This document shows, in pieces, positions 6,765 to 12,036 of a stretch of DNA of 64,000 bases. The notes beneath the pieces are model-generated. The model saw nothing but the letters and a program-made list of their open reading frames with translations, searched no databases and was not told the origin of the DNA. Source of the stretch: an uncultured Erysipelotrichaceae bacterium (GTDB lineage Bacteria > Bacillota_I > Bacilli_A > RF39 > UBA660); NCBI GenBank assembly GCA_902801525.1, contig CADCIN010000001.1, positions 34,583 through 98,582 of the forward strand. Reading direction: 5' to 3'. Numbering within the stretch: position 1 is the first letter of the stretch; every line of letters starts with the position of its first letter. The position numbers were made by a program, and so were the translations under genes.

Positions 6765-6971
6765 TTATTTTAAATCTTGTAATACTTTGTCAGCATCTTT
6801 ATATAATTCTATTGAAGTTCTTAAATACTTCGAATAAGCATCAACTGTTGTAGTAAATTCTACTAAATTTTGTAAGTCATCATCTTTTATAATATCTTTA
6901 ATATTTGATGCACATTTTTCAAGTTCTAATGAAATTGATTCTATTTCTTCATATTTCAAATTACCTATCAT
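6765..6971 (-). CDS. 68-aa helical protein; candidate type VII substrate (C-terminal ...ELYKDADKVLQDLK = YxxxD export motif); not WXG100
   Basis: Last gene of the essC-esaB operon; small size; predicted all-helical; YxxxD 10 residues from the C-terminus; no W-x-G. Confidence 0.5.
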   Translation of the reverse strand: MIGNLKYEEIESISLELEKCASNIKDIIKDDDLQNLVEFTTTVDAYSKYLRTSIELYKDADKVLQDLK

Positions 6972-7178
6972 TTACTCTTCACCTACTAATTCTTTAGACA
7001 TTACTTTTTTTGAATGTTTTTCTTGTACTATTTTTGAAGTATCTATTATTTTTTGTTTATACTCAATTATTTGTTCAATATATGCTTGATTATCTTTACT
7101 ATCCCAGTTTTTTTTCATTTTATCTGTTAGTTCAAATACTTTATTTATAGAATTAACATATACTTCATATTCTGTCAT
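6972..7178 (-). CDS. 68-aa helical protein, T7SS-associated partner or substrate candidate
   Basis: Directly abuts the next gene (stop/start 6971/6972) and sits 10 nt downstream of the esaB-like gene; no WXG motif. Confidence 0.45.
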   Translation of the reverse strand: MTEYEVYVNSINKVFELTDKMKKNWDSKDNQAYIEQIIEYKQKIIDTSKIVQEKHSKKVMSKELVGEE

Positions 7179-10400: not shown

Positions 10401-12036
10401 TATCATTTGTATTGATACTGTTTGGTGAAACTCTTTCATATAAAACTTTTTCTAAATTTAAAGATATCTCTTTAGCTTCATCTAAGTTAGTTGCATAATA
10501 TCTAATTGACTTATCATTGCTAAAGCAATGAGGCAGTATTCTTAAATAACTCCAATTTGATTCGTTCATTTCATTTGTTAATAAAACAATTTTTAAGTCA
10601 TCATAACTATGAAATGTCATCATTTGAAGAATAAGTCCATCTATAAATTTTTGCTTATTCATTCCTGTACCAATTATACCTACTATTCTTTTATTAATAA
10701 ATGATAAAGATATTGGTACATCAACTAAAGTTCTTGATTCTGCACCTAATTTATATACTTCCTCTAATAAATTATCTGTATATAGTGAAAATTTTTTTTC
10801 TGGAAATTTTACATTTCCTTGTAGTTCTGTACTTCCTATACCTAATCTTAAATCCAAAAAATCTTCTTGGTCAATTTCTCGTTCCCATAAATTTCTTTTT
10901 TTGTTTAAAACTATGTTTTTTGTTTCATTAAGTGGCAAATAATTATCAATTAGTATTTGTCTTTGAATTTTCATTTCATAATTTATTTTTTGTCTTTTTT
11001 CTTCTATATATGCACTATATTTTTCTTGTCTTAATTTTTCTAATTTTTTTTGTTGTCTATTTTGATAAGCTTTTGCTATTAATGGCCATAATAATGTTGA
11101 TAATAACATAGATCCACACATTATTAAACCAGGTAAACTTTCTTTAACAGTTCTTGAACCATCCATTAATCCAGATATAGATGAATATCCCATACTTACT
11201 GACATCATTGACATTGTAAGCATTGGACCTATTGTCATAATTAATGGTTGTTTTTCAGTAATTTGTTTTGCAGGGGGGTCATCAATTATTATATTTACTG
11301 GTTCAATTTTTGTTTTAAATCTTGGAGATCTAAAGAAATAATCATCTTCTTTAAAAAATTCTTTTCCTTCTTCATCAGGATTATCTTTTTCTACTTGTGT
11401 TTGAATACTAGGTTGTTCAATTGTGAATGTATTGCTGTCAAAAGTAATTAAGTTTGAAATATTATTTACAATAATTGAACCATTTAATAATATTATTTTT
11501 AAACCTAATATAAATATTATATCTCCATATTCTAGATCTTTTTCTAATACAGCTATATTATTTACATATGTACCATATTGACTATTCATGTCTGTTATAT
11601 GCCATCTATTATTGTTGTAAGTTAATCTTGCTTGTGTTTTTGTAACCAATGGATATCCATAATTTATTTGATTACTAGGTCCATTACCTATTAATATTTC
11701 ACCTGATTGCTTTAATTTTAATCTACTAATTTGTGGATCTATAGTTGGTGAACAATAAAGGATGACGTATTCATTTTCAGTACTTATTTTTAAAAAATAG
11801 ATGCTATACTCTGATAAATATGCATAATCAATTTCTTTATCTCCTGACATAATCTTAGTTTCAAAGTCGCTTTTAATTTTCCATCTGCCTTCTGATTCTT
11901 CAACGTTAATTAAATTACGTACATTTCCTAGGCTATCATTATCAGTAATCCAATAATTACCTTCAACTTTATTTGGAAGAGTAAAATTATATATTTTTGT
12001 TCTTTTTATTAATCTTACAATCACTCTTCTCACCAT
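7456..12036 (-). CDS. essC: type VII secretion FtsK/SpoIIIE-family ATPase EssC/YukB (two N-terminal FHA-like domains, two TM helices, three P-loop domains)
   Basis: 1526 aa; FHA-like N-terminus; TM segment LIMTIGPMLTMSMMSVSMGYSSISGLMDG...LLWPLIAKAY; Walker A motifs GMTGSGKSE and GSTGSGKE with degenerate flanking NTPase domains; size and architecture match EssC. Confidence 0.85.
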   Translation of the reverse strand: MVRRVIVRLIKRTKIYNFTLPNKVEGNYWITDNDSLGNVRNLINVEESEGRWKIKSDFETKIMSGDKEIDYAYLSEYSIYFLKISTENEYVILYCSPTIDPQISRLKLKQSGEILIGNGPSNQINYGYPLVTKTQARLTYNNNRWHITDMNSQYGTYVNNIAVLEKDLEYGDIIFILGLKIILLNGSIIVNNISNLITFDSNTFTIEQPSIQTQVEKDNPDEEGKEFFKEDDYFFRSPRFKTKIEPVNIIIDDPPAKQITEKQPLIMTIGPMLTMSMMSVSMGYSSISGLMDGSRTVKESLPGLIMCGSMLLSTLLWPLIAKAYQNRQQKKLEKLRQEKYSAYIEEKRQKINYEMKIQRQILIDNYLPLNETKNIVLNKKRNLWEREIDQEDFLDLRLGIGSTELQGNVKFPEKKFSLYTDNLLEEVYKLGAESRTLVDVPISLSFINKRIVGIIGTGMNKQKFIDGLILQMMTFHSYDDLKIVLLTNEMNESNWSYLRILPHCFSNDKSIRYYATNLDEAKEISLNLEKVLYERVSPNSINTNDKPGTGDYKEHKPYYMIITDDYKMVRDVEIVKDVVSLEKNVGFSMIAISPRLINLPNECKTFISIGDKKSGVFENELVSNKQKEFIPEIDPNLNIYECCKKLANIPIDIAKAEQNLPTSLSFLEMYNVGMIEQLNILNRWKNNDPTKSLSAPVGVDKSSDLFKLDLHEKFHGPHGLIAGMTGSGKSEFIITYILSMAINYHPYEVSFVLIDYKGGGLTGAFENKETGMVLPHLAGTITNLDTVEMNRSLASIQSELRRRQKMFNIARDSLNESTIDIYKYQSLYRKGLVKEPISHLFIISDEFAELKSQRPEFMDQLISTARIGRSLGVHLILATQKPAGVVNDQIWSNSKFRVCLKVQDNNDSQDMIKRPDAAELKNPGRFFLQVGYNELFALGQAAWAGAQYYPTQKIKKKVDTSVTFIDDVATPVKSLDSKENKVILKSEGEELTNIVKYIVNEAKENSVSIPKLWLDRIPNIIYVDKIKEKYGYKNQRNIINPLIGEYDDPDNQRQAPLTLPLSTEGNTAIYGSTGSGKELMISSIIYSTIISHRSDEVNFYVIDFGAETLKVFDEAPQVGDVLLSTDKDKITNLFKMLNSMIEERKKLFLDYNGSYDFYINHGGKQLPFIVVVVNNTEAFLDTYPEFEDTVTVLTRDCLKYGIAFIFTASTPNGIRYRMKQNFKQNLVLQFNDPNDYMSVINGARRKEPSKAFGRGLVDLDGVFEFQTAYPYKEEKMSEFIKVICERLKSLMKERARKIPVLPEIVDYEYLKNENITIDKLPLGIEKNSLNISSYDFIRNKTNLITGEDISEYEKTIRGITDIISKTNNPTVILDSYNILESIKNDKIFYDNNTCANGVKKIIQIYEDLKTKKASKVICIITGFSNIMNKLSPEDKTKIIKILNDMTSDMYFVLFDTINNIKNFSYDDWFKNTVSINNAIWLGNGLANQFTLKISNPNREISQEVPINFGYVINKSKAELVKFITKE

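What the first reader, a model, noticed from the sequence alone, without database searches (positions are those of the whole stretch)
6765..12036. Stripped-down type VIIb-like secretion module: EssC + EsaB/YukD + two 68-aa helical proteins, with no EssA/EssB/EsaA/WXG100
A 1526-aa FHA-containing FtsK/SpoIIIE ATPase (EssC/YukB architecture: two FHA-like domains, two TM helices, Walker A motifs GMTGSGKSE and GSTGSGKE plus degenerate P-loop domains) starts the operon. It is followed by an 85-aa YukD/EsaB-like beta-grasp protein and two 68-aa helical proteins. One of these ends ...ELYKDADKVLQDLK, a YxxxD signal of the kind used by type VII substrates. Neither contains W-x-G. Gene order (essC before esaB) is inverted relative to the S. 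aureus ess and B. subtilis yuk loci. No pseudokinase EssB, EssA or EsaA is encoded within several kb. The operon is flanked by promoter-like AT-rich DNA and then core genes, so it looks like a self-contained minimal module rather than a fragment of a larger ess cluster.
Basis: partly seen in the sequence, partly recalled or inferred. Interest (0 to 1): 0.7.

Follow-up and report, generated by a model that had tools for sequence, protein, structure and literature searches.

The report
Pared-down type VII secretion operon
A conserved four-gene operon in an uncultured small-genome gut bacterium encodes only the universal core of a type VII secretion system: the EssC motor, a ubiquitin-like helper and two shrunken (68-residue) relatives of the usual ~100-residue WXG100 proteins; a second, related module lies about 54 kb away.

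Summary

The claim of "no WXG100" is wrong in evolutionary terms. Both 68-aa proteins are miniaturised descendants of a WXG100 pair:
- One lost both ends and keeps the turn tryptophan (W-D-S).
- The other lost the hairpin tip and keeps the C-terminal ...KDAD..L..L tail.
- The sister clade has the same gene order with 95-101-aa, Pfam-positive WXG100 proteins.

All four genes are under purifying selection (dN/dS 0.04-0.12). The cassette is conserved in every locus complete enough to judge whose EssC is at least 56% identical.

No EssB, EsaA or EssA model matches within about 10 kb. The genome does hold a second EssC/YukD-like module with WXG100-like genes about 54 kb away, mostly outside the window. 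That module also lacks recognisable EssB, EsaA and EssA.

None of the ten published T7SS subtypes (a-j) has this composition: an FHA-bearing ATPase, a ubiquitin-like protein and two WXG100-type proteins, and nothing else. I call it a new variant of a known kind. Absence of partner proteins across the whole genome, and actual secretion, remain untested.

The parts
12064..12092 (-). Promoter-like site (TTGTAA-17-TATAAT) upstream of essC
   Evidence: Best-scoring sigma-70-like match of the region, 10 of 12 positions. It is a consensus match only. The total number of matches in the region is no higher than in shuffled sequence.
7456..12036 (-). EssC-type ATPase (1526 aa): FHA region, two transmembrane helices, stalk/DUF, three FtsK-like domains
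   Evidence: TIGR03928 scores 1002 bits against a cut-off of 778; Pfam finds FHA and FtsK_SpoIIIE. B. subtilis YukB (9qks) matches at E=3e-116 over aa 307-1013. There are more than 1000 homologues, those listed being 63-100% identical. dN/dS is 0.045.
11515..11694 (-). FHA domain (aa 115-174) without the canonical phosphothreonine-binding residues
   Evidence: Pfam PF00498, E=3e-10. Read by eye, IG-N replaces G-R, V-T-K-T-Q replaces S-R-x-H, and Y-G replaces N-G (for positions). IGN is invariant in alignment A1.
11065..11250 (-). Two predicted transmembrane helices of EssC (aa 263-284 and 301-324)
   Evidence: Sequence inspection. The Kyte-Doolittle scan passes its threshold for the second helix only.
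9844..9870 (-). D1 Walker A (GMTGSGKSE). The Walker B motif (FIISDEFAEL) is at 9487-9516.
   Evidence: Invariant in alignment A1. D1 is the only ATPase domain with both motifs intact.
8803..8826 (-). D2 P-loop (GSTGSGKE: K-E instead of K-S/T). The Walker B position reads VVVVNN (8500-8535). D3 has no P-loop.
   Evidence: The conservation pattern is in A1.
7189..7446 (-). P85: YukD/EsaB-type ubiquitin-like protein (TsxB) with no C-terminal Gly-Gly
6972..7178 (-). P68a: miniaturised WXG100 protein. The turn W is kept (W-D-S). About 19 N-terminal and 20 C-terminal residues are lost.
   Evidence: A profile of short family members alone hits a Pfam-positive 96-aa WXG100 protein at E=4e-11; single-sequence phmmer gives 1e-6. 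The long relatives pass the PF06013 threshold. Profile A3 hits an ESAT-6-like chain (12fa, 1.4e-4) and S. aureus EsxA (2vs0, 2e-4) in PDB. In the model the W sits at the predicted turn. dN/dS 0.12.
6765..6971 (-). P68b: miniaturised WXG100 partner. About 30 residues of the hairpin tip are deleted. The C-terminal K-D-A-D-x-A/V-L-x-x-L tail is retained.
   Evidence: A short-family profile hits a Pfam-positive 101-aa WXG100 protein at E=5.5e-15. Profile A4 hits S. aureus EsxA 2vs0 at E=5e-12. Only 43 cluster representatives are found among 1.84 billion proteins. dN/dS 0.077.
62897..64000 (-). In-window edge of the second, paralogous T7SS-like locus: a 275-aa lipoprotein-like gene (62897-63724) and the 3' end of a ~102-110-aa helical-protein gene (63798-64000). 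The rest lies beyond the window.
   Evidence: On the ENA contig that carries the window, the order is: 541-aa membrane protein, EssC2 (TIGR03928, 910 bits), 83-aa YukD-like protein, 124 aa, 103 aa (W-Q-G), 162 aa, 101 aa, 102 aa (W-T-G), 102 aa, 275 aa. EssC2 is 38% identical to EssC1, and P83 is 39% identical to P85.

Best explanation
The interval is one operon encoding a pared-down type VII secretion module. The host is an uncultured, low-G+C gut Bacilli lineage that carries sporulation genes (relatives have contigs of about 1.42 Mb). The operon contains only the three components common to almost all known T7SS:
- an FHA-bearing EssC ATPase/translocon;
- a YukD/EsaB-type ubiquitin-like protein;
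- a non-identical pair of WXG100-family proteins, here shrunk to 68 residues each.

Shown here:
- the family identity of all four proteins;
- tight translational organisation of the operon;
- monophyly and derived status of the short forms;
- purifying selection on all four genes;
- absence of recognisable EssB, EsaA and EssA near this locus and near a second paralogous locus.

Inferred mechanism, by analogy with B. subtilis and mycobacterial systems:
1. P85 binds the FHA/DUF/D1-hairpin face of EssC and fixes it in an assembly-competent state.
2. EssC oligomerises through its stalk and DUF and is the only membrane protein of the module.
3. P68a and P68b form a four-helix-bundle heterodimer.
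4. The conserved C-terminal tail of P68b docks on a C-terminal ATPase domain of EssC.
5. ATP hydrolysis by D1, the only domain with intact Walker A and B motifs, drives export of the dimer, alone or as a co-secretion partner for other cargo.
For: Component identity:
- EssC: TIGR03928 1002 bits against a 778 cut-off; YukB match at E=3e-116.
- P68a and P68b: profiles of short family members alone hit Pfam-positive WXG100 proteins at E=4e-11 and 5.5e-15. Family profiles hit S. aureus EsxA at 2e-4 and 5e-12.
- The artificially fused P68a-P68b model is a four-helix bundle with W25 at the turn.

Origin of the short forms:
- In an NJ tree the short-Esx loci form one clade. The sister clade has the same gene order with 95-101-aa WXG100 pairs.

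Conservation and constraint:
- The cassette is present in all loci complete enough to judge whose EssC is at least 56% identical.
- dN/dS is 0.045, 0.039, 0.12 and 0.077 for the four genes.

Operon and motifs:
- Ribosome-binding sites and TAAATG coupling; promoter-like site.
- Only D1 has full Walker A and B motifs.

Literature:
- YukD contacts the FHA, DUF and D1 hairpin of YukB (PMC12637312).
- TsxA, TsxB and TsxC are the near-universal T7SS core (PMC11217815).
Against: - None of the three small proteins reaches any Pfam or NCBIfam threshold directly.
- The W-x-G motif is lost. W25 is present in only 23 of 34 P68a family members. The Tyr of the proposed YxxxD signal is present in only 4 of 32 P68b members.
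- The heterodimer model comes from an artificial fusion folded without an alignment (pLDDT 70).
- Canonical T7SSb needs EssB, EsaA and EssA (PMC13492133). Their absence was tested only within about 10 kb of each locus and across the window, not genome-wide.
- Divergent analogues could exist. One candidate is the 541-aa single-pass membrane protein beside EssC2.
- There is no expression or secretion evidence.
- A second EssC module in the same genome means this one need not work alone.
Confidence: 0.7

Rival explanations
1. The module is not autonomous. EssC1 and P85 work with membrane partners encoded elsewhere. Candidates are the 541-aa single-pass protein or other products of the second locus, or EssB/EsaA/EssA analogues too divergent for current models. 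The system would then be split, not minimal.
For: - A second EssC/YukD module with extra genes lies about 54 kb away.
- The FHA region of EssC1 is strongly conserved. In B. subtilis that region recruits YukC (PMC12637312).
- Published subtypes often carry lineage-specific membrane components that no older model recognised (PMC11217815).
Against: - No partner gene is conserved next to the cassette across all loci complete enough to judge; the upstream neighbours differ.
- BLAST finds no homologue of the 541-aa protein among the ORFs of 75 related loci.
- Related loci with 43-50% identical EssC also show no Pfam match to EssB, EsaA or EssA among the ten large neighbouring proteins scanned, and several are flanked by housekeeping genes.
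Confidence: 0.25
2. P68a and P68b are not cargo. They are cytoplasmic adaptors or regulators of EssC, like the small helical Lap/EsxC/EsxD partners, and target another protein for export. That protein could be a product of the second locus or the signal-less SpoIID-like enzyme encoded next door.
For: - WXG100-like proteins act as targeting partners in T7SSb (PMC13492133, PMC11217815).
- The SpoIID-like neighbour is convergent with the operon in nearly every locus of the clade. It lacks any transmembrane or signal segment in three orthologues.
- Profile A4 weakly touches LapA3 (E=0.13).
Against: - Their closest characterised relatives are core EsxA-type proteins, which are themselves secreted.
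- No LXG-type or other large helical cargo is encoded in the operon.
- The N-terminus of the SpoIID-like protein does not look like a helical T7 targeting domain (sequence reading only).
Confidence: 0.2
3. The cassette is a decaying remnant of a full ess cluster in a shrinking genome and no longer functions.
For: The genome is small. The WXG100 proteins are truncated and their hallmark motifs eroded. D2 and D3 of EssC are degenerate.
Against: - All four ORFs are intact across dozens of lineages down to 56% EssC identity.
- dN/dS is 0.04-0.12.
- Ribosome-binding sites and translational coupling are preserved.
- Degenerate D2 and D3 are normal for EssC (PMC13492133).
Confidence: 0.03

Closest known systems
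T7SSb (Ess of S. aureus, Yuk/Yue of B. subtilis)
   Same: - An EssC with an N-terminal FHA region lacking canonical phosphothreonine residues, two transmembrane helices, a DUF and three FtsK-like domains. It passes the EssC equivalog model.
- A separate YukD/EsaB-type ubiquitin-like protein.
- WXG100-family proteins encoded in the cluster.
   Different: - No EssB/YukC, EsaA/YueB or EssA/YueC is found near either locus.
- The gene order is essC, esaB-like, then esx-like, instead of esxA first and essC last.
- There is a non-identical WXG100 pair instead of a single EsxA.
- Both WXG100 proteins are cut to 68 aa and have lost W-x-G.
- The FHA region is too divergent to align with YukB by phmmer.
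T7SSg (Garrett, Higginson & Palmer 2024, PMC11217815)
   Same: A 'relatively simple' system with two WXG100 paralogues (A1, A2), a ubiquitin-like B protein and the ATPase C.
   Different: TsgC lacks FHA domains, whereas this EssC has them. T7SSg also has the beta-propeller protein TsgL and sits beside Tad pilus genes. Neither is found here.
T7SSf and T7SSj (Clostridia; PMC11217815)
   Same: An FHA-bearing ATPase, a ubiquitin-like protein and WXG100. Two different T7SS loci can co-occur in one genome.
   Different: Those systems also carry a PPM phosphatase, a DUF6382-FHA protein and an AAA+ or kinase component. No such families are recorded within about 10 kb of this locus.
WXG100 pairs: EsxA/EsxB (ESAT-6/CFP-10) and S. 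aureus EsxA
   Same: Helical hairpins encoded as an adjacent pair. One partner carries a C-terminal tail of the Y-x-x-x-D/E type in the full-length relatives. The profile matches EsxA structures.
   Different: They are 68 aa instead of about 100. P68a lacks both helix ends. P68b lacks the hairpin tip including W-x-G. The Tyr of the signal is mostly replaced by Asn within the short family.

Membership tests
T7SSb (Ess/Yuk) | [quoted passage not shown] | tested here: met
   TIGR03928 1002 bits (cut-off 778); Pfam FHA and FtsK_SpoIIIE; YukB match at E=3e-116.
T7SSb (Ess/Yuk) | EsaB/YukD ubiquitin-like protein | tested here: met
T7SSb (Ess/Yuk) | EssB/YukC membrane pseudokinase | tested here: not met
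   No PF10140 or TIGR03926 match among genes within about 10 kb of this locus or at the second locus. The whole genome is not testable with these tools.
T7SSb (Ess/Yuk) | EsaA/YueB large polytopic membrane protein and EssA/YueC small membrane protein | tested here: not met
   No match near either locus. A 100-aa membrane ORF at 12924-13226 has no family hit. The whole genome was not tested.
T7SSb (Ess/Yuk) | Secreted core WXG100 protein EsxA | tested here: inconclusive
   Homologues are present but miniaturised. Secretion is not testable here.
WXG100 (PF06013) | Sequence membership in the family | tested here: inconclusive
   P68a and P68b do not hit PF06013 directly. P68b gives only E=0.023 to NF035934. 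Profiles of short family members alone hit proteins that pass PF06013 gathering, at E=4e-11 and 5.5e-15.
WXG100 (PF06013) | About 100 residues with a W-x-G motif at the hairpin turn | tested here: not met
   Both are 68 aa. P68a has W-D-S, and G never occurs at position +2 in 34 family members. P68b lacks the turn region altogether.
WXG100 (PF06013) | Helix-turn-helix hairpin that pairs into a four-helix bundle | tested here: inconclusive
   The fused single-sequence AlphaFold model has four helices, pLDDT 70 and pTM 0.63. Foldseek finds four-helix bundles at TM about 0.7. No multimer prediction was available.
YukD/EsaB (PF08817) | Beta-grasp fold, no C-terminal Gly-Gly, encoded beside the T7SS ATPase | tested here: met
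   The protein ends ...SRIILV. Its gene lies 9 nt after essC.
T7SSg (PMC11217815) | ATPase without FHA domains; TsgL beta-propeller protein; adjacent Tad pilus genes | tested here: not met
   An FHA domain is present. No propeller or Tad families are recorded in the flanks.
T7SSf / T7SSj / T7SSe (PMC11217815) | PPM phosphatase, DUF6382-FHA protein, kinase or AAA+ component in the cluster | tested here: not met
   None are recorded within about 10 kb. One distant related locus (L085) does have a protein kinase gene directly upstream of essC. Phylogenetic placement of EssC1 against these subtypes was not tested, because no reference sequences were available.

The most novel reading that the evidence does not exclude
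EssC plus a ubiquitin-like protein is a sufficient type VII translocon in a walled monoderm. This clade would run two paralogous 'ABC-only' systems with EssC as the sole membrane component. One of them would export the smallest known WXG100-derived dimer (2 x 68 aa). A bolder extension is that the signal-less SpoIID-like peptidoglycan enzyme, always encoded tail-to-tail with the operon, reaches the wall through it.
Probability: 0.3. Interest if true: 0.75.

Novelty: new variant of a known kind. Interest (0 to 1): 0.55.

Why it matters
An open question for type VII secretion in Gram-positive bacteria is what forms the channel and which parts are dispensable. Canonical T7SSb needs five machinery proteins. 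A 2024 survey found that only the ATPase, the ubiquitin-like protein and a WXG100 protein are shared by nearly all subtypes.

A natural, conserved, selected module made of just those three kinds of protein would be a ready-made minimal system for reconstitution and structural work. The 68-residue WXG100 derivatives show which parts of the hairpin can be lost:
- the hairpin tip and the W-x-G motif in one partner;
- both helix ends in the other.
They also show what is kept, namely the C-terminal tail. This is directly useful for defining the export signal.

The value is limited until the complete genomes are checked for hidden partners and export is demonstrated.

Tried and rejected
- Exact look-up of the 1526-aa EssC found nothing, because public gene calls start four codons later. 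The 1522-aa form worked.
It returned only nine chimeric or fused gene calls of 135-306 aa. That search was wasted for alignment building.
- The scan of reference genomes with EssC gave only three loci, all with uninformative names ('Bacilli bacterium', 'Bacillales bacterium UBA7476').
- A profile of P85 homologues found nothing meaningful among PDB sequences. Only fold comparison linked it to YukD.
A typed concatenation was accepted.
- The AlphaFold-database fold library was unavailable.
- The first dN/dS run over all pairs gave inflated, saturated values of 0.37-0.6. It was replaced by 14 close locus pairs.
- Large neighbouring proteins in distant loci were scanned for EssB and EsaA, with no hits.
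- A role as a DNA translocase was considered and rejected. The protein matches the full-length EssC model, while its FtsK match is weak and partial.
- Rfam and tRNA scans of the window added nothing relevant.
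Full report
**Observation.**
The reported interval holds four minus-strand ORFs:
- 7456-12036 (1526 aa)
- 7189-7446 (85 aa)
- 6972-7178 (68 aa)
- 6765-6971 (68 aa)

The DNA has about 20-30% G+C. Each small gene is preceded by a GGTGA-type ribosome-binding site. 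The last two genes abut as TAAATG in the same frame. All stops are TAA or TAG. The best promoter-like match of the region, TTGTAA-17-TATAAT, lies at 12092-12064, just upstream of the first gene.

The flanks are core genes. Upstream are rplM, rpsI and a ZIP transporter. Downstream, convergent, are a SpoIID-like gene and a Zn-phospholipase-C-like gene.

**The large protein is EssC.**
- It scores 1002 bits against the NCBIfam equivalog TIGR03928 (cut-off 778.4). Pfam finds FHA at aa 115-174 and FtsK_SpoIIIE.
- Against PDB sequences the best match is B. subtilis YukB (9qks, E=3e-116). The match covers only aa 307-1013, so the FHA region is too divergent to align.
- Only the first ATPase domain has both Walker A (GMTGSGKSE, aa 723-731) and Walker B (FIISDEFAEL). 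D2 has GSTGSGKE and VVVVNN. D3 has no P-loop. This degeneracy is usual for EssC (PMC13492133).
- Read by eye, the FHA domain lacks the canonical phosphothreonine-binding residues: IG-N for G-R, V-T-K-T-Q for S-R-x-H, and Y-G for N-G. T7SSb EssC proteins show the same loss (PMC11217815).

**The 85-aa protein is YukD-like.**
- It has no Pfam or NCBIfam hit, and a profile of its homologues finds nothing among PDB sequences.
- With a 60-sequence alignment, AlphaFold2 gives a beta-grasp model with mean pLDDT 81.6.
- Foldseek returns ubiquitin-like folds, including YukD at E=1.6e-3.
- More distant homologues, found next to other EssC genes, have PF08817 YukD as their top, sub-threshold Pfam hit (E=6e-5 to 4e-4).
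- The protein ends ...SRIILV, without Gly-Gly.

**The two 68-aa proteins are shrunken WXG100 proteins.**
I collected related loci from public assemblies: 8 by protein look-up and reference-genome scan, and 80 from a metagenome scan. I then searched their ORFs.
- Iterative searches and alignments link P68a to 96-98-aa proteins with a clear W-x-G. For example, 'NWDSKDNQAY' aligns with 'NWQGADNQEY'.
- P68b links to 100-104-aa partner proteins. 'MIGNLKYEEI...' aligns with 'MIEKISYEQV...', and 'LYKDADKVL' with 'TYKAADAAI'.
- Most of the ten long relatives scanned pass the Pfam WXG100 gathering threshold (27.3 bits). The 96-aa and 101-aa L058 proteins, which are the profile targets below, score 40.9 and 39.4 bits. 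L057 scores 46.8 and 38.0, L074 38.5 and L059 42.6.
- Profiles built only from the short family hit those L058 proteins at E=4e-11 (P68a) and 5.5e-15 (P68b), in a database of 1865 ORFs. Single-sequence phmmer already gives 1e-6 and 4e-5.
- Family profiles hit solved EsxA structures: S. aureus 2vs0 at E=5e-12 for the P68b family and 2e-4 for the P68a family.
- P68a has lost about 19 N-terminal and 20 C-terminal residues but keeps the turn tryptophan. P68b has lost about 30 residues of the hairpin tip, including W-x-G/S, but keeps the N-terminus and the C-terminal tail.
- An artificial P68a-P68b fusion folded without an alignment gives four helices (3-23, 27-61, 68-97, 103-135) with W25 at the first turn. 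It has pLDDT 70 and pTM 0.63, and resembles four-helix bundles (TM about 0.7). This is suggestive only.
- Within the short family, W25 occurs in 23 of 34 sequences and G never follows at +2.
Asn occurs at that position in 19.
- A60, D61, L64 and L67 are nearly invariant.

**Distribution and selection.**
- In every related locus complete enough to judge whose EssC is at least 56% identical, the cassette is EssC, then ~85 aa, then ~56-79 aa, then ~68-80 aa.
- In nearly all of these it is followed by the convergent SpoIID-like gene.
- The upstream neighbour varies.
- An NJ tree of EssC rooted on the paralogue shows the short-Esx loci as one clade. The sister clade has the same gene order but 95-101-aa WXG100 pairs. 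A subclade has 80-aa P68b forms as intermediates. Miniaturisation is therefore derived.
- For 14 locus pairs of suitable divergence, dN/dS is 0.045 (EssC), 0.039 (P85), 0.12 (P68a) and 0.077 (P68b).
- The P68b family is small: 43 representatives at E<=1e-3 among 1.84 billion proteins, nearly all 68-79 aa.
- Sources label the homologues only 'Firmicutes/Bacilli bacterium' MAGs from gut and rumen samples.
- The window also encodes Spo0A and a sortase, so the host carries sporulation genes and, given a sortase and peptidoglycan-acting enzymes, presumably has a cell wall.

- No EssB/YukC, EsaA or EssA family is found or recorded within about 10 kb on either side, or elsewhere in the window.
- On the ENA contig that carries the window, a second T7SS-like locus starts at the window's high end. 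In order it encodes:
  - a 541-aa single-pass membrane protein with an HExxH motif;
  - EssC2 (1521 aa, TIGR03928 910 bits);
  - an 83-aa YukD-like protein;
  - a 124-aa protein;
  - a 103-aa protein with W-Q-G;
  - proteins of 162 and 101 aa;
  - a 102-aa protein with W-T-G;
  - a further 102-aa protein;
  - the 275-aa lipoprotein-like gene at window 62897-63724.
- The two W-x-G proteins hit PF06013 and TIGR03930 just below threshold (E=6e-5 to 7e-4).
- EssC2 is 38% identical to EssC1, and P83 is 39% identical to P85. These are old paralogues.
- This second locus also lacks recognisable EssB, EsaA and EssA.
- More distant related loci (EssC 43-50% identical) show EssC, a YukD-like protein and WXG100 proteins, sometimes with large unannotated proteins. 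Several are flanked by housekeeping genes. The ten large neighbours scanned gave no EssB, EsaA or EssA match.

**Comparison with the literature.**
- Canonical T7SSb has five machinery proteins: EssC, EsaA, EssB, EssA and EsaB (PMC13492133).
- Garrett, Higginson and Palmer (PMC11217815) described subtypes T7SSc-j. They found that TsxA (WXG100), TsxB (ubiquitin-like) and TsxC (ATPase) are almost universal. Every subtype they define has further components.
- The simplest, T7SSg, has A1, A2, B, an ATPase without FHA, and a beta-propeller protein beside Tad genes.
- The present cassette is an FHA-bearing ATPase, B, and two A-type proteins, and nothing else. It matches none of them.
- I found no paper describing such a system or sub-70-residue WXG100 derivatives.
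[quoted passage not shown] The hairpin sequence is conserved here: GRFFLQVGYNELFALGQAAW against [20 protein letters not shown].

**Most likely mechanism.**
Shown: the four components, their homology, the operon structure and the selection on it.

Inferred:
1. P85 locks the cytoplasmic N-terminal part of EssC.
2. EssC oligomerises as the only membrane protein of the module.
3. P68a and P68b dimerise.
4. The conserved P68b tail engages a C-terminal ATPase domain.
5. D1 powers export.

Rivals:
- The module depends on partners encoded elsewhere.
- The mini-Esx proteins are adaptors for other cargo.
- The cassette is a decaying remnant. I consider this unlikely.

**Verdict.**
It is wrong that WXG100 proteins are absent, and incomplete in missing the paralogous locus.

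I rate this a new variant of a known kind, of moderate to good interest. Genome-wide absence of partner proteins and actual secretion remain to be shown.

Noticed in passing
window 62897-64000 and beyond (L011 1214-10828): A second T7SS-like locus lies on the same contig. It encodes a 541-aa HExxH membrane protein, EssC2, an 83-aa YukD-like protein, several 100-160-aa helical proteins (two with W-x-G) and a 275-aa lipoprotein-like protein. Only its last gene and a fragment fall inside the window.
   Followed up: partly
window 5710-6750 (+): A SpoIID-like gene (TIGR02870 match over aa 85-336, below cut-off) is convergent with the operon in nearly every locus of the clade. It has no transmembrane or signal segment in three orthologues, which is odd for an enzyme that acts on peptidoglycan.
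   Followed up: partly
window 1-2350; L001 20661-23311; L095 8534-20396: The region beyond HtrA differs between assemblies of the same species. This window has a Mob_Pre relaxase gene (1304-2350). Another contig has a large serine recombinase there. An IS110 transposase lies further on. This looks like a variable, mobile-element insertion zone.
   Followed up: no
window 12924-13226 (-): A 100-aa membrane-protein ORF lies between rpsI and the ZIP transporter, overlapping that gene's 3' end by about 20 nt. It is not called in the ENA annotation, but 113-115-aa ORFs occupy the same position in L003 and L006, and the L006 one is visibly similar. It has no family hit.
   Followed up: no
L085 5238-5990: In one distant related locus, a 250-aa true Ser/Thr protein kinase (Pfam Pkinase, E=2e-32) is encoded directly upstream of essC. 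This recalls the kinase-containing T7SS subtypes.
   Followed up: no
P0121-P0129: Public gene calls on short metagenome contigs fuse the YukD-like protein to the next gene or to unrelated sequence. This could reflect frameshifts, chimeric assemblies or calls made with another genetic code.
   Followed up: no
L008, L007, L042-L048 (P68b orthologues of 80 aa): One subclade has an 80-aa form of P68b that retains part of the deleted hairpin region (...KYNGDDNISLKAKK...). It looks like an intermediate stage of the shrinkage.
   Followed up: partly
window 48504-49340 (-): A radical-SAM domain (107 aa) and a SPASM domain (137-164 aa) are called as two adjacent small genes next to uvrB. This may be a split or degraded gene.
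   Followed up: no
window 31589-31686 (-): The S10-Clostridia ribosomal-protein leader (Rfam RF03136, 39.3 bits) lies ahead of the S10 operon. It is the only Rfam hit in the window, and there are no tRNA genes.
   Followed up: yes
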